NCBI GenBank assembly: GCA_905233405.1
Contig: CAJOEG010000017.1
Span: 1 to 33,942, forward strand
Length of the DNA: 33,942 nucleotides
Direction: 5' to 3'
Source: an uncultured Bacteroidales bacterium
GTDB lineage: Bacteria > Bacteroidota > Bacteroidia > Bacteroidales > ML635J-15
Below, one piece after another: positions 10,225-33,300 of the stretch. A model generated the notes under the pieces. It was not told the origin of the DNA. It made no database searches and saw nothing but the letters and a program-made list of their open reading frames with translations. Within the stretch, counting starts at the first letter, position 1. Each line of letters starts with the position of its first letter. The position numbers were made by a program, and so were the translations under genes.

Positions 10225-10512
10225 TTAAAAATATGATGCTAGCACATCGCCCGTAAGTTCTTCGTATTCGTCACATTTTTCCCATGCAAGAAAATCAGAT
10301 TCTCTTTCTTTGTAAACATTTAGTTTCTCTATTTTGCCTCGTTTTATAAGTTCTTCTTCAAGATATTTTACCTCTGCATCGCAATGCGGACAAGTACCGT
10401 TGCATTCCCCCTCGAAAGTACATTCTTCCTGCTGAAGCGGAATATTATTTTCGTCCGCAATGTTCTTGCGAACTTCTTTTAGATACTTGCAGATATTTTT
10501 ACCGTTGTTCAT
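10225..10512 (-). CDS. Cys-rich domain protein, soluble paralog B
   Basis: 95 aa. The first ~57 aa are nearly identical to paralog A. The C-terminus is acidic and unrelated (KERESDFLAWEKCDEYEELTGDVLASYF), with no hydrophobic segment. Confidence 0.75.
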   Translation of the reverse strand: MNNGKNICKYLKEVRKNIADENNIPLQQEECTFEGECNGTCPHCDAEVKYLEEELIKRGKIEKLNVYKERESDFLAWEKCDEYEELTGDVLASYF

Positions 10513-10546
10513 TGGCGTTGGGTTTCTAATTTTGAAATGTGTTTTG

Positions 10547-10577
10547 CAAAAATATGCATTTTCATAAAAACAGCAAA
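10547..10577 (-). promoter_or_regulatory. Bacteroidota sigma-A-type promoter for the Cys-rich/radical-SAM cluster
   Basis: On the minus strand: TTTG (10574-10577), a 19-nt spacer, then TATTTTTG (10547-10554). This lies about 35 nt upstream of the ATG at 10512. Confidence 0.45.
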
Positions 10578-10607
10578 AAAGAGCCTGCGGGGAACAGACT
10601 CTTTTTT
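10575..10607 (-). terminator. Terminator-like hairpin closing the upstream YtrA/ABC/GIN operon (symmetrical A/T flanks)
   Basis: AAAAAAGAGCCTG-CGGGGAA-CAGACTCTTTTTT, with one mismatch in the stem and T runs on both strands. Confidence 0.5.
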
Positions 10608-10630
10608 GAAGTAAGTAAATTTATGTTATC

Positions 10631-10745
10631 GATGAGGTTGACGAAATTTGGGGTAGTTTGAAGTTGTTTGATATTGTTTGACATTGTTTGAGGTTGTTTA
10701 AAATGGTTTGAACTGTTTTGAGATTGTTTCAAATAGATTGAACAG
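10631..10745. repeat. Exactly 10-bp-phased tandem array of the motif nnnTTGTTTGA (about 9-11 units)
   Basis: Consecutive 10-nt blocks from 10631 to 10740 end in TTG, TTTG, TTTA or TTTC, and each is followed by A: ...gggtagtttg aagttgtttg atattgtttg acattgtttg aggttgttta aaatggtttg aactgttttg agattgtttc aaatagattg. Confidence 0.85.
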
Positions 10746-10829
10746 CATAAACCTATAAACGCTGCAGTCATTGAAACGGCGAAGCCATCAAACCTTTCAA
10801 ACGGCGGAGCAATTCAAACAACCATAAAC
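10746..10829 (-). repeat. Dispersed intergenic repeat, copy 1 (CGCCGTTTC / GTTTGA family), directly after the GIN-gene stop
   Basis: The reverse complement of 10773-10810, GCTCCGCCGTTTGAAAGGTTTGATGGCTTCGCCGTTTC, is about 80% identical by eye to 33156-33193. Confidence 0.7.
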
Positions 10830-11546
10830 CTATTCCTTAGTCAAAACCTTTCCCAATCCTTCATTGGAAACCCCAATATCCTCGCAGTCCAAATCGGATG
10901 CATCAATATTGCCAACACCCTCGTTTATGAGTTTTGCCGTCTCAGTCTTGCCGGAAATGCTTATGCTTCCTACGCCTTCGTTGTCTAGTCGGACATACTT
11001 TGCATCAAGCACTTCGACACTGATTTTGCCTACACCCTCGTTGTCGGCTTTCAGGCAAGAAACCGCCAGTTTGCTCAACTCTATTGAGCCAACGCCCTCG
11101 TTCTTCACTATCAAAGTGTCGGCGCGAAGCGAGTCGCAGGTAATGTTGCCAACGCCTTCGTTCTTGATTGACTTGCAAGCGGGCGAATATACCTTTATAT
11201 CGAATTTTGCATTATTGTTTCTGCGCGGCCTGCTCGAAAAGTCGATGCGCAGAACGTCATCGTCAACATCAGTTTCTATTAGACTGATATAATCGCTTGG
11301 CGCTGTTATTTCAACCGCCGACTTTTTCGACTGCACATAGACAATATCGCACATTCCATTGTTTTCAATGGCATCAAAAGCCTCAAGTTCCCTTGTTTCA
11401 ACCTTTTCCGTTTCGTCGACATTGGCTCTTTTCCTGTGCGGACTATCATTGTCAAATTTCGCAAACCAAAACAATACACCTACAACCATTAGCACAAATA
11501 TTACAGCCAATCCGCTGAACAATAATATATTAGTTTTCTTTTTCAT
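10830..11546 (-). CDS. Membrane-anchored head GIN domain (DUF2807-like) protein
   Basis: N-terminal TM helix (ILLFSGLAVIFVLMVVGVLFWF), then six NEG(V/L)G(N/S/K) repeats spaced about 20 aa apart, typical of the PF10988-type beta-helix. Confidence 0.75.
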   Translation of the reverse strand: MKKKTNILLFSGLAVIFVLMVVGVLFWFAKFDNDSPHRKRANVDETEKVETRELEAFDAIENNGMCDIVYVQSKKSAVEITAPSDYISLIETDVDDDVLRIDFSSRPRRNNNAKFDIKVYSPACKSIKNEGVGNITCDSLRADTLIVKNEGVGSIELSKLAVSCLKADNEGVGKISVEVLDAKYVRLDNEGVGSISISGKTETAKLINEGVGNIDASDLDCEDIGVSNEGLGKVLTKE

Positions 11547-11913
11547 CTTTCTTTGCTTTTAAAAATCCGTCATAATATTCTTTCAATTCACTTATATCAA
11601 TTCCAAGAAGTTCCATCTCCTGAAATATGCGTGGAAGTTCGCGGTTTACAAACCTTTCGCGTCGCAACTCCTTTATCTTCGCTATTGCGTCCTCGGAAGC
11701 AAAGTATCCTATGCCCCTGCGGTTGGAAATAATGCCCGAACGCTGCAGGAAATCGTAGGCGCGAAGCACCGTGTTGGGGTTCACCTCGAGTTGTACGCCG
11801 AGTTCACGCACCGAGAGTATCCTGTCGTTTTCCTTCCACTTGCCCATCAGAACTTGCTCGCACACATAGTCGGCAATCTGCTGGTAAATAGCCTTCGATT
11901 CTGAAAAGTCCAT
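11530..11913 (-). CDS. GntR-family transcriptional regulator, YtrA subfamily
   Basis: 127 aa with a winged HTH (LSVRELGVQLEVNPNTVLRAYDFLQRSGIISNRRGIGYF) and a short C-terminal helical region typical of YtrA. Overlaps the downstream GIN gene by 17 nt. Confidence 0.85.
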   Translation of the reverse strand: MDFSESKAIYQQIADYVCEQVLMGKWKENDRILSVRELGVQLEVNPNTVLRAYDFLQRSGIISNRRGIGYFASEDAIAKIKELRRERFVNRELPRIFQEMELLGIDISELKEYYDGFLKAKKDEKEN

Positions 11914-12640: not shown

Positions 12641-13549
12641 TTAATTGTTCAACTTAGTTTCCATTTCACTGGCAAATCTCGATTTGCCGTTTTCCTTTTC
12701 GGCGAAGATTTCATGCATCTTTTCTCTTGCCGAGATAGCCGCGCAGAACAGCAGTTCCATATCGAACTTGTCGTCGGCATCGTCGATGTGAGTGCAAACT
12801 GCCACCTTGCCGGCAATGTTGTCCTCGCTGTAGAGCACCTTGCCCTGTTGCGAAAGTTCCTCGAACTCATTAGCCGACAGAACCTTGAAAGTAAGGCGGT
12901 CGCAAATGGTGTTGATGTCGGCGTTGAGAAGAATTTTGCCATTGTCGAGCACCAGCACGGCATCGATTACATTCTGCAGGTCGCGCACCTGATGCGTGGA
13001 GATGATGAACGCCTTGTCGTCGGTAATTGCCGAAGCCACTACCTTGCGGAATGTGCTTTTCGACGGGATGTCCATTCCGTTGGTCGGCTCGTCCATAATT
13101 AATAACTTGGTGTTGGTTGCAAGCGCAAAGCTCACAAGCACCTTTTTCTTCTGTCCGTGCGACATCTTTGTCAATTTCTGCTCCATATCGGCAATTTCGA
13201 ACTGACGGAGATAGTTCTCGAAGTCACTGATGCTGAAGTTCGGATAGAAGGGCGCGTAAATCTTCACATATTCGTTTACGCTGACTGTCGGCACATCCAT
13301 TTCCTCGGTGACGAAGTAAATGTCGGCGAGCATTTCCGGATTGCGTTGTTCAGGCTTCATGCCAAATACCGAGACCGTTCCGCTGTTGCAGAAGCGAAGT
13401 CCCGAAATAATTTTCAGCAGGGTAGTTTTTCCCACACCGTTTTTCCCAAGCAGACCGTAAATATGTCCTGCCTCGAGCGAAAGATTCAGGTTGTCGAAGA
13501 TTTTCCTCTGCGGCACATACCCGAAATTCATGTTTTTAATCTCAATCAT
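12641..13549 (-). CDS. ABC transporter ATP-binding protein
   Basis: Walker A GKNGVGKTT, signature-like MSHGQKKK, Walker B LLIMDEPT. I place the start at the ATG at 13549 (MIEIKNMNFGY). The GTG at 13615 sits at or within a few nt of the start site predicted from the promoter box at 13618..13625. Confidence 0.85.
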   Translation of the reverse strand: MIEIKNMNFGYVPQRKIFDNLNLSLEAGHIYGLLGKNGVGKTTLLKIISGLRFCNSGTVSVFGMKPEQRNPEMLADIYFVTEEMDVPTVSVNEYVKIYAPFYPNFSISDFENYLRQFEIADMEQKLTKMSHGQKKKVLVSFALATNTKLLIMDEPTNGMDIPSKSTFRKVVASAITDDKAFIISTHQVRDLQNVIDAVLVLDNGKILLNADINTICDRLTFKVLSANEFEELSQQGKVLYSEDNIAGKVAVCTHIDDADDKFDMELLFCAAISAREKMHEIFAEKENGKSRFASEMETKLNN

Positions 13550-13617
13550 ACCAATTATTATTTTAGTTAATTTTCCGTTGTTTTTGTTTATTAGTGTATT
13601 AGTGATGTAATACACTG

Positions 13618-31099: not shown

Positions 31100-31314
31100 A
31101 CTAAATTCCGTTAAAATAAGTTATCAACAAAAGTACATTGTTTTTTTATACTGAACAAATTTTTCCTTTTCATATTTTTTGCAAATCAGAACGATAAGCA
31201 CAAACAACCGATAAGATTAGGCTCAACCGCCATCTGTTGAAAAAAAGCGAGGAGTTTACACCTTAATATTATATATAAGGGGTAAATTTGTTGGTTTGTA
31301 AATTTGCACCTAAA

Positions 31315-33135
31315 ATGAAGATACGATTTCTATTCGCACTCGTCGCGCTGACAGCAACAATCGCAGCAACGGCACAGGAATATACTCAGGAGAAGATACT
31401 CTACAAGAACGGCAACACCAAGGAAGAAGGCTCCCTTTACCTTGGACTGCGTTTCGGTACGTGGACATTCTACACACCCGACGGAAAGGTTGCAGCAAAG
31501 ACCGACTTCTACAAGGATATGCTCCACGGCGAGAATACTACTTTCTACGACAATGGCAACAAGCACGAGATGTACAACTACCGAGCCAACAGCCGTCACG
31601 GAGCCTGCGAGGAATACTACGAGAACGGCAAACCGAAAATGAAAGGATTTTACAACAGCAACGTCCGTGACAGTATTTGGCAGTTGTTCTACGACAACGG
31701 AAATCAGCAGTCTGAAATCACATACAAGGATGGTAAAATCTTCAGCATCAACAAGTTCTACACCCGTGATGGCAAACAGACCGTGACTGCTGGAAACGGT
31801 TCGATGATAAATTACTACGACAGCGGCGCAAAGAACTCGGAAGGCAACATTAAGAATGGCGTTGAGGATGGCAAATGGATATACTACCACGAAAACGGCA
31901 AAAAGAAATCGGAAGGCACATTTGCTTCGGGCGAACGCGTAGGCGAATGGAAGGAATGGTACGACAACGGTCAACTAAAGACCGAAATCAACTACGAGAA
32001 CGGTCTAAATACCTTTTGGACACGCACCGGCACCAAAGAAATGGAAGGCATTATGGCCGACGGCAAGCGCGACAAGACTTGGACTTACTGGTACCGATCT
32101 GGCAAGGTGCGTAGCGTAAACAACTACAAGATGGATGTGCGTGACGGCTTGCAAACCAAGTACTTCGAAAATGGGCAGAAGGAGTCGGAAATGACTTACG
32201 TCAATGGCAAGCTCAACGGTGAAGCACACTTCTGGCTCGAAAACGGTCAGCCCGACATCGACGGAAACTTCAAGGACGACCTGCAGGAAGGCCTTTGGAC
32301 CTACTGGCGCAAGGACGGTCAGAAGGGCAACGAAGGAAAATACTCGAAAGGCAAGATGGATGGTCGCTGGACATACTGGTATTCAAACGGTCAAGTGTGG
32401 AAGCAAGTTGACTATACCGCAGGAATCCGCACTGGCGCGTGGCTCATCTTCTTCGAGAACGGACAGAGATTTCGCGAAGGTCAGTATGAAAACGACGAGG
32501 AAACTGGTCTGTGGACCGAATGGAACGAAGACGGCGTGATGGTTCTCCGTGGCAACTACAAGAACGGCATAATGGAAGGCAAATGGGAGGCTTGGCACGA
32601 CAACGGCAACAAGAAGTCGGTGGTGGAATATTGTGACGGACTACTTTGCGGAAAGAACTATTTCTGGTTTGAAAATGGCAAGCCACAATTTGAGGAAAGC
32701 TACAAGATTACCGATTCAAAAACAGGCGAAGGCAAAACTTCTGTACTTAACGGCGAATACAAAAACTTCAATATCCGTGGCGTTGAAATGATTAGCGGAA
32801 CCTACAATATGGGCAAGCGCAACGGCAAGTTCACATACCGCAACGCTAATGGCGGTGTCATTAAGGTCGAGTACTACAAGGACGACAAGCCCGATGGCAA
32901 GTGGCAAGAGTTCTACGACTTCGGAGGCGTGCAGACCGAAACCAACTACAAGAACGGCATGAAGGAAGGCAAGTTCACCCGCTATGACCAACGTGGCAAT
33001 ATAACATTCCAGTCGAAGTTCCTCGCCAACCGTCAGGTTGAAGTCATCGTAGATGACAACCCGAATTTGCCTCAGAACAAGCAAAAGGCGGGGCAGGGAA
33101 ATCAGCAGAATACGAGAAGCGTAGGATACAGATAG
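31315..33135 (+). CDS. MORN-variant (YwqK-like, PF07661-type) repeat protein, secreted
   Basis: The start is taken at the ATG at 31315 (MKIRFLFALVALTATIAATAQE signal peptide). More than 20 units of G.W..(Y/W)Y.NG....E..Y..G...G follow. TAAATTTG boxes lie at 31283 and 31299. Confidence 0.85.
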   Translation: MKIRFLFALVALTATIAATAQEYTQEKILYKNGNTKEEGSLYLGLRFGTWTFYTPDGKVAAKTDFYKDMLHGENTTFYDNGNKHEMYNYRANSRHGACEEYYENGKPKMKGFYNSNVRDSIWQLFYDNGNQQSEITYKDGKIFSINKFYTRDGKQTVTAGNGSMINYYDSGAKNSEGNIKNGVEDGKWIYYHENGKKKSEGTFASGERVGEWKEWYDNGQLKTEINYENGLNTFWTRTGTKEMEGIMADGKRDKTWTYWYRSGKVRSVNNYKMDVRDGLQTKYFENGQKESEMTYVNGKLNGEAHFWLENGQPDIDGNFKDDLQEGLWTYWRKDGQKGNEGKYSKGKMDGRWTYWYSNGQVWKQVDYTAGIRTGAWLIFFENGQRFREGQYENDEETGLWTEWNEDGVMVLRGNYKNGIMEGKWEAWHDNGNKKSVVEYCDGLLCGKNYFWFENGKPQFEESYKITDSKTGEGKTSVLNGEYKNFNIRGVEMISGTYNMGKRNGKFTYRNANGGVIKVEYYKDDKPDGKWQEFYDFGGVQTETNYKNGMKEGKFTRYDQRGNITFQSKFLANRQVEVIVDDNPNLPQNKQKAGQGNQQNTRSVGYR

Positions 33136-33300
33136 AAAGTTTCTAGGTTTCTGTGGCTGCGCCGTTTCTGAGTTTGAATGACTTCGCCGTTTCTAAGTTT
33201 CAGGTCTAAAGTTCAATAGTTCAAAGTTGTAGCGGCGCAATGTTTTGCGCTCGTTGAATGGTTTTAATGGCTACGTTCGTTTGAAGATTTGATTGCCTGC
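33136..33300 (+). repeat. Dispersed intergenic repeat, copy 2 (CGCCGTTTC / GTTT(C/G)A family), directly after the MORN-gene stop
   Basis: GCTGCGCCGTTTCTGAGTTTGAATGACTTCGCCGTTTC (33156-33193) matches the reverse complement of 10773-10810. It is followed by more GTT(T/C)(C/G/A)A units and a hairpin GCGCAA-TGTT-TTGCGC (33235-33250). Confidence 0.7.

What the first reader, a model, noticed from the sequence alone, without database searches (positions are those of the whole stretch)
10631..10745. Perfectly helical-phased (10.0 bp) GTTTGA array in a 3' flank / inter-operon spacer
About 9-11 consecutive units of nnnTTGTTTGA recur with an exact 10-bp period. They line up with the 10-column print blocks from 10631 to 10740. 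The array contains no spacers and is too short-period for a CRISPR. It codes for nothing credible.

The same-face presentation of a 6-mer on every helical turn is what one expects for cooperative binding of a DNA-bending or nucleoid-type protein, or for intrinsically curved DNA. On the transcribed minus strand it gives UCAAAC(A)A repeats in the 3' UTR of the YtrA/ABC/GIN operon, ahead of the terminator hairpin.

Immediately to its right (10746-10829) the complementary motif (T)CAAAC appears 3-4 times. The region is therefore also a long imperfect inverted repeat. For example, GGTTGTTTAAA at 10692 faces TTCAAACAACC at 10813.
Basis: seen in the sequence. Interest (0 to 1): 0.65.

Follow-up and report, generated by a model that had tools for sequence, protein, structure and literature searches.

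The report
Dispersed 10-base satellite repeat, rumen Bacteroidales
The perfectly spaced GTTTGA array is real, but it is one copy of a short tandem repeat scattered between genes in this rumen bacterium and a few relatives, and because it gains and loses whole units between strains and is missing from the same spot in sister species, it looks like satellite DNA rather than a control site for the neighbouring operon.

Summary
Positions 10636-10741 hold about 10 in-register units of RRTK-GTTTGA, where shuffled sequence gives none. The array lies between the stop codon of a DUF2807/GIN gene and that gene's terminator hairpin, and it faces an inverted arm at 10746-10829.

It is not a locus-specific element. 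This MAG carries about 20 such arrays, always with a 10-bp period. A sub-lineage of the genus and four other Bacteroidales families carry them too, but 0 of 300 sampled Bacteroidota genomes do.

At this locus:
- Conspecific strains in cattle gut metagenomes carry a 12-unit allele made by two single-unit duplications.
- Sister species that keep the operon and the terminator have 0 or about 5 units, including two genomes that are rich in arrays elsewhere.

My best reading (0.6) is a slippage-prone dispersed satellite that forms one module of mosaic intergenic repeats, comparable to cyanobacterial STRR and other short dispersed tandem repeats.

A wedge model predicts strong curvature (99.7th percentile). 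However, sister satellites in the same genome have an 8-bp period, so helical phasing does not look like the selected property. A function as curved DNA, as a protein-binding array or as a G-free RNA tract is not excluded.

Interest is moderate: a new member of a known but unexplained class.

The parts
10636..10741 (+). 10-bp tandem array with unit consensus RRTK-GTTTGA, 10-11 units (well-formed from 10656). The + strand has almost no C. The transcribed minus strand reads (UCAAAC MAYY)n with 27% C and 4% G.
10746..10829 (+). Inverted arm: xAAAC units in the opposite polarity, interrupted by GC mini-hairpins (GGCGAAGCC at 10778-10786, GGCGGAGC at 10802-10809). The same modules follow the array at other loci of the genome.
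10746..10756 (+). CATAAACCTAT, first copy of an 11-bp direct repeat that brackets the inverted arm.
10823..10833 (+). CATAAACCTAT, second copy. It overlaps the TAG stop codon (10830-10832, minus strand) of the GIN gene.
10574..10608 (-). Intrinsic terminator hairpin with T-tail of the GntR/ABC/GIN operon. It is conserved in 7 relatives, whereas the spacer in front of it is not.
10830..11546 (-). DUF2807 / GIN-domain protein, last gene of the operon. The array lies in its 3' untranslated region.
10547..10554 (-). TATTTTTG, which matches the Bacteroidota -7 promoter box TAnnTTTG (consensus recalled from my own knowledge). It lies 35 nt before the ATG at 10512 of the next gene (10225-10512), downstream of the terminator. 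The array therefore sits about 80-190 bp upstream of this box.
33136..33300 (+). Second copy in the window of the hairpin-unit module (GTTTCN + GGCTNCGCC units, then a GTAG-type palindrome). It starts right after the stop codon of the gene 31288-33135.

Best explanation
The array is one copy of a dispersed 10-bp satellite with unit RRTK-GTTTGA. The satellite is one module of mosaic intergenic repeats in a sub-lineage of this rumen Bacteroidales genus and in a few other Bacteroidales families.

**How it behaves**
- At this locus it has filled the gap between the stop codon of the GIN gene and a conserved terminator.
- It grows and shrinks by whole units, through slipped-strand mispairing or unequal exchange between units. 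The invariant TKGTTTGA core would supply the microhomology for this.
- Units with a damaged core would no longer take part in amplification. That would keep the core and the exact 10-bp register uniform while the 4-nt spacer drifts.
- It has no function specific to the GntR/ABC/GIN operon.
- Its predicted curvature and its pairing with the inverted arm follow from its sequence. They are not demonstrated purposes.

**Shown here**
- Dispersal across the genome.
- A strict period.
- Whole-unit polymorphism between strains.
- Loss or gain at the orthologous site.
- A patchy distribution among taxa.

**Inferred**
- Slippage as the mechanism.
- Core-dependent amplification as the reason the core is conserved.
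- The way copies reach new loci, which remains unknown.
For: **Dispersed family**
- The three-unit pattern hits 75 times in the own genome, against 5 for the reversed-pattern control.
- There are 12 arrays of at least 4 units and about 20 real loci of at least 3 (25 chains scanned, a few of them spurious), nearly all intergenic.

**Strict unit**
- Neighbouring GTTTGA cores are 10 bp apart 42 times. They are 9 bp apart twice and 11 bp apart never.
- Triplets of cores occur only at period 10.

**Whole-unit polymorphism at this locus**
- Contigs of runs X4, X5 and X6 carry 20 extra bases plus three apparent substitutions.
- Together these amount to duplicating GTTTGACATT once and GTTTGAGGTT once, giving 12 units.
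- Runs X1 and X3 carry the 10-unit form.
- Runs X7 and X8 carry an unalignable spacer of about 285 nt between the same two genes.

**Higher-order periods**
- The array shows a 30-bp higher-order period, and array C114 shows a clear one. Both point to multi-unit duplication.

**Orthologous loci**
- The terminator is conserved in L011, L013, L014, L016, L017, L018 and L020.
- The stop-to-terminator gap is about 40 nt with no array in L016 and L020, and about 95 nt with no array in L017 and L018. The genomes of L017 and L018 (G024 and G008) hold 45 and 78 pattern hits elsewhere.
- L011 and L014 have 2-3 plus 3 TCAAAC units, split by a GTAG palindrome.
- L013 lacks a further 20 nt or so of the second block.

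**Patchy distribution**
- 10 of 25 genomes of the genus have arrays, own genome included. 6 of the 8 positive relatives have a close GIN orthologue, against 0 of the 16 negative genomes, which suggests a single sub-lineage.
- 9 of 401 sampled Bacteroidales genomes have arrays, in 5 families.
- 0 of 300 sampled Bacteroidota genomes have arrays.

**Period is not a helical constant**
- Sister satellites in the same genome have an 8-bp period.
Against: - The hexamer core and the T at position -2 are nearly invariant, while three spacer positions vary freely between A, G and T. Plain neutral decay does not predict this. It needs either selection or the core-dependent amplification that I infer.
- C is almost excluded from the G strand even at the variable positions: 2% overall, and 7 of 258 at the three variable positions. 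This points to a constraint on strand composition.
- The same 10-mer with the same RRTK spacer pattern turns up in unrelated Bacteroidales families and in some Flavobacteriales and Saprospiraceae. This needs horizontal spread, a shared seed or a shared factor.
- Within this genus, arrays between co-directional genes are oriented with TCAAAC as the sense strand 20:4, or 15:4 when counted by locus.
- No dispersal mechanism was identified.
Confidence: 0.6

Rival explanations
1. The array is a functional DNA-level element. It would be intrinsically curved DNA, or a same-face array of GTTTGA sites bound cooperatively by a nucleoid-type protein. It could also be bound by the primary sigma factor, whose -33 element in Bacteroidota is TTTG (recalled from my own knowledge). 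It would act as a promoter-upstream or boundary element between transcription units.
For: - The wedge model predicts about 70 degrees of bend per 60 bp here, at the 99.7-99.8th percentile. All nine arrays of at least 5 units fall at the 97.4-99.99th percentile.
- The core is conserved while the spacer is free, and the register is never broken.
- Many arrays in the genus lie 60-280 bp upstream of a start codon, with a TAnnTTTG box in between. Here the array is about 80-190 bp upstream of the box at 10547-10554.
- In the broad sample, arrays occur in all four gene-pair configurations at similar frequency, as expected for a double-strand property.
Against: - Any asymmetric 10-bp repeat is predicted to be curved, so the prediction is nearly automatic. 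The angle table was also recalled from memory.
- 8-bp sister satellites share the same intergenic niches.
- The array is absent from the orthologous site in array-rich relatives, and its length is polymorphic within the species.
- The family is missing from 98% of sampled Bacteroidales and from all 300 sampled Bacteroidota. A conserved host factor is therefore unlikely.
- There is no TAnnTTTG box inside the array.
Confidence: 0.15
2. The array is a functional RNA-level element. On the sense strand it is a roughly 100-nt G-poor, C-containing, unstructured tract with a pyrimidine cluster (YYUC) every 10 nt. It could load Rho, serve as an unstructured spacer or leader, or pair with the inverted arm into a long 3'-UTR hairpin that affects mRNA decay.
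For: - The minus-strand composition is A 44%, C 27%, G 4%. The C-minus-G skew is at the 99.7th percentile of 100-nt windows.
- The genus shows an orientation bias of 20:4 with TCAAAC as sense.
- In other Bacteroidota, 22 arrays end no more than 35 nt before an ATG in the TCAAAC-sense orientation. Within 30 nt the counts are 21 for this orientation against 5 for the opposite one.
- The stop-to-terminator RNA folds with z = -4.2.
Against: - An intrinsic terminator follows 30 nt later, so a Rho site would be redundant here.
- The broad sample shows no overall orientation bias: 31 against 25.
- Only about half of the array can pair with the shorter inverted arm.
- Metatranscriptome contigs do not cover the array, so transcription through it is inferred from the gene and terminator layout only.
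- Loss at orthologous sites and length polymorphism argue against a required element.
Confidence: 0.15
3. The array plus the inverted arm is a discrete non-autonomous mobile element, like a MITE or a REPIN. It would be moved as single-stranded DNA by a Y1 (IS200/RAYT-type) transposase, and the tandem units would be only its internal filler.
For: - The array-switch-inverted-arm layout, with homologous modules (ATAAACYTATRAAC, then AAACGGCGNAGCCAT units), recurs at 7 own-genome loci and in G010.
- GTAG-tagged palindromes of the REP type (PMC3733652) share the same spacers.
- The genome encodes a Y1 transposase at C31:5737-6081.
Against: - The copies are modular with variable module numbers. They are not colinear elements with fixed ends.
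- No target-site duplication or empty-site junction could be defined.
- Y1 transposase genes occur in 34 of 41 relatives, with or without arrays.
- Many arrays lack the inverted arm.
Confidence: 0.08
4. The array is an operator for the operon's own GntR (YtrA-type) regulator, or it encodes the 69-aa ORF at 10562-10771.
For: - The array is adjacent to a GntR-family gene.
- An ORF is open across the array on the minus strand.
Against: - The same array occurs at about 20 unrelated loci.
- Relatives that keep the operon lack it.
- It lies downstream of the operon, not at the operon's promoter.
- The ORF has no family match, runs through the terminator, and is frame-shifted by the natural +20-bp allele.
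Confidence: 0.02

Closest known systems
Dispersed short tandem repeats of bacteria. These include cyanobacterial STRR heptamers, the 'long simple sequence repeats' with 5-11-bp units of Mrazek et al. 2007 (as summarised in PMC4679880), and the TAACTGA direct repeats of Beggiatoaceae, Cyanobacteria and five Bacteroidetes (PMC4679880).
   Same: - One short unit is repeated head to tail at many intergenic loci of a genome.
- The distribution among taxa is sporadic.
- Copy number is variable.
- One orientation contains stop codons and the other is open.
- Some copies lie directly upstream of start codons in one orientation.
- No mechanism or function has been established.
   Different: - The unit is 10 bp, with an invariant 6-8-nt core and a degenerate RRTK spacer, rather than a perfect heptamer.
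- One strand uses only three letters.
- The array is regularly joined to an inverted arm that carries GC mini-hairpins.
- The carriers are rumen and gut Bacteroidales.
REP / BIME mosaic elements of enterobacteria and the GTAG-tagged palindromic repeats (PMC3733652, PMC2817692).
   Same: - They are intergenic mosaics of a few short module types in alternating polarity.
- They are often placed between a stop codon and the next signal.
- GTAG-type palindromes occur in the same spacers here.
- Y1 transposase genes are present.
   Different: - The array units are not palindromes and carry no GTAG or CGTC tag.
- They are tandem without linkers.
- There is no correlation with Y1 transposase presence.
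Phased A-tract curved DNA, and the arrays of 7-11-bp direct repeats bound cooperatively by plasmid partition or ribbon-helix-helix proteins (parC/ParR, omega heptads, met boxes). This comparison is recalled from my own knowledge.
   Same: - Short direct repeats occur at about one helical turn.
- A T3/A3 tract is present once per unit.
- Curvature is predicted.
   Different: - There are more than 20 chromosomal loci rather than one site per replicon or regulon.
- There is no adjacent partition or regulator gene.
- The tracts are only 3 bp long.
- Binding was not tested.

Membership tests
Dispersed short tandem repeats (STRR / 5-11-bp LSSR class) | Head-to-tail iteration of a unit of 5-11 bp without spacers | tested here: met
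   The period is 10 with 8.7-10 copies. Core spacing is 10 bp in 42 of 44 close pairs (8-11 bp apart) in the genome.
Dispersed short tandem repeats (STRR / 5-11-bp LSSR class) | The same unit forms arrays at many separate, mostly intergenic loci of one genome | tested here: met
   There are 75 pattern hits against 5 for the control, and about 20 loci, nearly all between ORFs.
Dispersed short tandem repeats (STRR / 5-11-bp LSSR class) | Copy number varies between strains in whole units | tested here: met
   A 12-unit allele occurs in runs X4, X5 and X6, and a 10-unit allele in X1 and X3. L013 lacks about 20 nt relative to L011.
Dispersed short tandem repeats (STRR / 5-11-bp LSSR class) | Sporadic, lineage-restricted distribution | tested here: met
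   Arrays occur in 10 of 25 genomes of the genus, 9 of 401 of the order (5 families) and 0 of 300 of the phylum sample.
REP / BIME (RAYT-associated palindromic repeats) | The unit is a 20-40-bp imperfect palindrome with a GTAG or CGTC tag | tested here: not met
   The units are 10-bp direct repeats without dyad symmetry. GTAG palindromes occur only as neighbours at other loci.
REP / BIME (RAYT-associated palindromic repeats) | Co-occurrence with a cognate Y1 (RAYT) transposase | tested here: inconclusive
   PF01797 is present in 34 of 41 relatives, regardless of whether they carry arrays.
CRISPR array | Repeats of 23-50 bp separated by unique spacers of similar length | tested here: not met
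   The unit is 10 bp with a 4-nt degenerate spacer.
Plasmid-type iteron or centromere arrays (parC-like) | One or two clusters per replicon, next to partition or replication genes | tested here: not met
   There are about 20 chromosomal loci. The neighbours here are a DUF2807 gene and a Cys-rich protein gene.
Intrinsically curved DNA (phased A/T tracts) | A/T tracts repeated at about one helical turn, giving net curvature | tested here: inconclusive
   A T3 tract occurs every 10 bp. The wedge model gives about 70 degrees per 60 bp, at the 99.7th percentile. However, the parameters were recalled from memory, the tracts are short, and there is no physical measurement.
Rho utilisation (rut) site | An unstructured, C-rich, G-poor tract of at least about 70 nt on the transcript, upstream of Rho-dependent 3' ends | tested here: inconclusive
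   The composition fits: C 27%, G 4%, skew at the 99.7th percentile. Rho dependence is not testable here. An intrinsic terminator follows. The orientation bias is seen only within the genus.
Protein-coding small ORF | An open frame conserved in length and phase, with homologues | tested here: not met
   There is no Pfam hit. The ORF crosses the terminator. A +20-bp allele exists. Orthologous spacers range from 40 to 225 nt.

The most novel reading that the evidence does not exclude
The invariant TKGTTTGA core, the never-broken 10-bp register and the near-total exclusion of C from one strand could be kept by selection. The arrays would then be cis-acting structural modules. They could be curved or protein-coated DNA that insulates neighbouring transcription units. 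Alternatively they could be G-free RNA tracts read by Rho or by another single-strand-binding factor. In either case several Bacteroidales lineages would have acquired and spread them independently.
Probability: 0.15. Interest if true: 0.7.

Novelty: new member of a known kind. Interest (0 to 1): 0.4.

Why it matters
- It removes a tempting misreading. A perfectly helical-phased array next to a regulator-containing operon is here not an operator. It is a copy of a genome-wide satellite.
- It adds a well-defined 10-bp family to the still unexplained class of dispersed short tandem repeats in bacteria. The family has a conserved core, a degenerate spacer and a three-letter strand composition, and it is joined to an inverted hairpin-bearing arm.
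- It shows that these repeats account for length differences between strains and species in the spacers of rumen Bacteroidales. That bears on MAG assembly breaks, strain typing and the annotation of 3' UTRs and promoters.
- A few cultured carriers exist, for example Draconibacterium sediminis and Cloacibacterium rupense. Curvature, protein binding and Rho dependence could therefore be tested directly.

Tried and rejected
- **RNA family search.** At gathering thresholds the window yields only a tRNA. A relaxed search of 10400-10950 gives three hits far below threshold.
- **Transcription evidence.** Four rumen metatranscriptome runs hold only sparse contigs of the flanking genes and none over the array. 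This is uninformative.
- **Phylum-wide conserved site.** I first thought the motif was phylum-wide, because a scan of 185,579 species returned many Bacteroidota loci. Even sampling showed 0 of 300 Bacteroidota and 9 of 401 Bacteroidales genomes, so I dropped the idea. Hits outside Bacteroidota are mostly perfect single-unit repeats that merely contain GTTTGA.
- **Promoter array.** There is no TAnnTTTG box in the array. The unit cannot form one.
- **IHF-like consensus (WATCAANNNNTTR, recalled from memory).** The units do not fit it on inspection.
- **Y1/RAYT association.** There is no correlation.
- **Link to the replication strand.** The G strand lies on the locally C-rich strand at 12 of 17 loci, p = 0.14. 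This is not significant.
- **Viral contigs.** Only 10 hold a 5-unit array, several of them giant-virus bins. I did not pursue this.
- **Literature.** Four full-text searches found nothing on this 10-mer.

Full report
**1. What is there**

The + strand from 10636 to 10741 is a run of 10-11 units in exact 10-bp register. The well-formed units run from 10656 to 10741: GTTTGAAGTT, GTTTGATATT, GTTTGACATT, GTTTGAGGTT, GTTTAAAATG, GTTTGAACTG, TTTTGAGATT, GTTTCAAATA, GATTGA.

- Tandem Repeats Finder reports period 10 with 8.7 copies, and a better-scoring 30-bp higher-order period.
- The repeat finder reports 8 in-register copies, all spaced by 10.
- A three-unit pattern with up to two mismatches hits 7 times in the window, all here, and never in 100 dinucleotide-preserving shuffles.

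**2. Context**

- The minus strand carries a four-gene operon: an ABC ATPase (12641-13615), an unannotated 239-aa gene, a GntR-family regulator (11530-11913) and a DUF2807/GIN-domain protein (10830-11546).
- The stop codon of the GIN gene is the TAG at 10830-10832.
- A 15-pair hairpin with a T-tail lies at 10608-10574 on the same strand.
- Read along the transcript, the order is: stop codon, a G/U-type arm with GC mini-hairpins (10829-10746), the (UCAAAC+4)n array (10741-10636), about 30 nt, then the terminator.
- After the terminator comes a TATTTTTG box (10547-10554). It matches the Bacteroidota -7 consensus TAnnTTTG (recalled from my own knowledge) and lies 35 nt before the ATG of the next gene.
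- The two arms are complementary (pairs I1-I4). The stop-to-terminator RNA folds at -64.4 kcal/mol against -44.9 +/- 4.6 for shuffles. Only about half of the array can pair with the shorter arm.
- The 69-aa ORF across the array has no family match and runs through the terminator.

**3. It is a dispersed family**

- The same three-unit pattern hits the MAG 75 times, against 5 for the reversed-pattern control. The MAG is 2.39 Mb in 273 contigs, and the window is C17:1-33942.
- My own scan finds 12 arrays of at least 4 units. It finds 25 chains of at least 3 units, a few of them spurious T-rich matches and several sharing a spacer, so about 20 real loci. Nearly all lie between ORFs.
- The logo from 86 units is R R T K G T T T G A:
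  - The T at position -2 was not part of the search pattern, yet it is T in 78 of 86 units.
  - The three variable spacer positions use A, G and T.
  - C makes up 2% of this strand.
- Core-to-core spacing in the genome is 10 bp 42 times, 9 bp twice and 11 bp never.
- Triplets of GTTTGA occur only at period 10. Two sister satellites, ATTTGA+2 and GTTTCT+2, occur only at period 8.

**4. It is one module of a mosaic**

- At seven own-genome loci the array is followed by the same switch and inverted arm, in variable number: ATAAACYTATRAAC, then units of the type AAACGGCG-N-AGCCAT-NN-AAAC. The same holds in the relative G010.
- GTAG-tagged palindromes of the REP type (PMC3733652), TTACGA repeats and the 8-bp satellites share the same spacers.
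- A second copy of the hairpin-unit module starts right after the stop codon of the gene that ends at 33135. An earlier first-stage note on this genome had flagged this copy.

**5. Turnover at this locus within the species**

Cattle gut metagenome assemblies hold this species.

- Contigs of runs X1 and X3 span the array with the 10-unit form.
- Contigs of X4, X5 and X6 are about 3% divergent. They carry 20 extra bases after 10663 plus changes at 10672, 10682 and 10683. Read together, this is the reference with GTTTGACATT and GTTTGAGGTT each duplicated once, giving 12 units.
- Adjacent identical units are the footprint expected of slippage.
- In X7 and X8 a contig joins the two flanking genes through about 285 nt that do not align to the 325-nt spacer at 90% identity.

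**6. Turnover between species**

Close orthologues of the GIN protein (73-79% identity) occur in 11 genomes of the genus. Seven of them keep the same terminator. In those seven the stop-to-terminator gap is as follows.

| Loci | Gap length | Array content |
|---|---|---|
| L016, L020 | about 40 nt | none |
| L017, L018 | about 95 nt | none |
| L011, L013, L014 | 190-215 nt | 2-3 TCAAAC units, a GTAG palindrome, then 3 more units (the second block is missing in L013) |

- The genomes of L017 and L018 (G024 and G008) hold 45 and 78 pattern hits elsewhere.
- L011, L013 and L014 have the same orientation and the same 3' boundary (CATCGWTAACATAAATTT) as here. L013 lacks about 20 nt of the second block.
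- The array is therefore old enough to be shared with some sister species, but it is dispensable for the operon and unstable in length.

**7. Distribution**

- In the genus, 10 of 25 sampled genomes have arrays, counting the own genome. All 16 array-negative genomes lack the close GIN orthologue, while 6 of the 8 positive relatives have it. The carriers therefore look like one sub-lineage, which is an inference.
- In an even sample of the order, 9 of 401 genomes have a four-unit array. They belong to 5 families and show the same RRTK spacer pattern.
- In an even sample of the phylum, 0 of 300 genomes have one.
- A scan of 185,579 species found heterogeneous arrays of this kind almost only in Bacteroidota. 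These were many rumen and gut Bacteroidales and Paludibacteraceae, some Saprospiraceae and Lewinellaceae, a few Flavobacteriales, and Draconibacterium. A GC-richer variant occurred in one Verrucomicrobiales MAG.
- Hits in other phyla are mostly perfect one-unit repeats that merely contain the hexamer.

**8. Orientation**

- In the own genome and G010, arrays between co-directional genes have TCAAAC on the sense strand 20 times against 4 (p = 0.0015). Counted per locus this is about 15 against 4 (p = 0.02).
- In the broad sample of 119 loci the split is 31 against 25, and convergent (30) and divergent (26) spacers are equally used.
- In that sample, 22 arrays end no more than 35 nt before an ATG in the TCAAAC-sense orientation. 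Within 30 nt the counts are 21 against 5 for the opposite orientation (p = 0.02). Most of these arrays lie directly after the preceding gene and have no -7 box upstream, so they act as intercistronic spacers.
- I read this as selection filtering where each orientation is tolerated. The GTTTGA strand carries a TGA in every frame as well as alternative start codons. The TCAAAC strand is open and cannot fold on itself.
- ORFs were called crudely, by first ATG and a minimum of 110 aa. These counts are therefore approximate.

**9. Physical properties**

- I used a dinucleotide wedge model with Bolshoy-Trifonov angles recalled from memory. An (A6N4)12 positive control gave 130 degrees and random sequence gave 28 degrees.
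- The array is predicted to bend about 62-69 degrees per 60 bp across 10630-10710, the top 0.3-1% of windows in the contig.
- All nine arrays of at least 5 units score at the 97.4-99.99th percentile. The two 8-bp arrays score at the 70th and 94th.
It is almost automatic for any asymmetric 10-bp repeat, and the model's own twist angles give about 10.4 bp per turn for these units, so the bend direction drifts along the array.
- On the transcript strand the tract is 44% A, 27% C and 4% G. Its C-minus-G skew is at the 99.7th percentile, which is the generic composition of a Rho loading site.

**10. Interpretation**

The weight of evidence favours a dispersed, slippage-prone satellite with no function specific to this operon (confidence 0.6). 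That evidence is the many loci, whole-unit polymorphism, loss at orthologous sites even in array-rich genomes, sporadic lineage distribution, and 8-bp sister families in the same niches.

Several features are not explained by plain neutrality:
- the invariant core,
- the unbroken register,
- the avoidance of C,
- the recurrence of the same 10-mer in separate families.

I account for the first two by core-dependent amplification, which is an inference. The rest leave room for a structural DNA role (0.15), an RNA-level role (0.15) or a mobile-element origin (0.08). An operator for the adjacent GntR regulator or a coding ORF is effectively excluded.

**11. Comparison with known systems**

- The closest described class is the dispersed short tandem repeats of bacteria. 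These are the cyanobacterial STRR heptamers, the 5-11-bp 'long simple sequence repeats' of Mrazek et al. 2007, and the TAACTGA repeats of Beggiatoaceae, Cyanobacteria and some Bacteroidetes (PMC4679880). The last also sit close to start codons in one orientation, and they too have no established mechanism.
- The mosaic layout recalls BIMEs, and the neighbouring GTAG palindromes are REP-like (PMC3733652, PMC2817692). The array units themselves fail the REP definition, and Y1 transposase genes do not track the arrays.
- Four literature searches found no description of this 10-mer family.
- Earlier notes of this scan describe 7-, 8-, 9- and 21-bp analogues and 'polarity-switching GTTTGA/TCAAAC blocks' in other Bacteroidales genomes. 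I used these as leads only.

Noticed in passing
window 10778-10786 (+), and right arms of arrays at own-genome contigs C28, C67, C72, C110, C114, C132: The inverted arm carries mini-hairpins of the form GGC-GNA/GNNA-GCC, for example GGCGAAGCC, GGCGCAGCC and GGCGTTAGCC. GCGAAGC is, from my own recollection, the classic extra-stable DNA mini-hairpin. That hints that this arm is read as single-stranded DNA.
   Followed up: partly
window 10746-10756 and 10823-10833: An exact 11-bp direct repeat, CATAAACCTAT, brackets the inverted arm. The second copy supplies the TAG stop codon of the GIN gene. That gene ends ...LTKE*, whereas orthologues end ...LTKNN* or similar, so the repeat has reshaped the last codons of the gene.
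   Followed up: partly
own genome, e.g. C31:11304 (+) and C126:1025 (-); G010 loci L150, L151: Two sister satellites have a strict 8-bp period: ATTTGA+2 (20 triplet hits) and GTTTCT+2 (11 triplet hits). TTACGA repeats also lie between arrays and promoter boxes. All of these share spacers with the 10-bp arrays.
   Followed up: partly
loci L023-L141 (other Bacteroidota), e.g. L046, L060, L062, L097, L110, L123: In other lineages the arrays often fill the gap between a stop codon and the next ATG, in the TCAAAC-sense orientation, and end 3-20 nt before the start codon. They therefore serve as G-free intercistronic leaders.
   Followed up: partly
runs X7 and X8 laid on window 10440-10900: A related strain joins the GIN gene and the Cys-rich gene through about 285 nt that do not align to this 325-nt spacer, while the flanking coding sequence is 89-100% identical. 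The whole spacer is hypervariable.
   Followed up: no
loci L024, L027, L035, L048, L061 (Verrucomicrobiales MAG palsa_1400): A GC-rich variant (GTTTGA + YYSG) is dispersed over at least five contigs of one Verrucomicrobiales MAG. This is an independent family built on the same hexamer outside Bacteroidota.
   Followed up: no
G028 (another family of the order): This genome has 137 pattern hits and also 23 hits to the reversed control pattern. It therefore carries further 10-bp satellites beside GTTTGA.
   Followed up: no
window 33220-33250: A GTAG-tagged imperfect palindrome (GTAGCGGCGCAATGTTTTGCGCTC) of the REP type follows the hairpin-unit module after the gene that ends at 33135.
   Followed up: no
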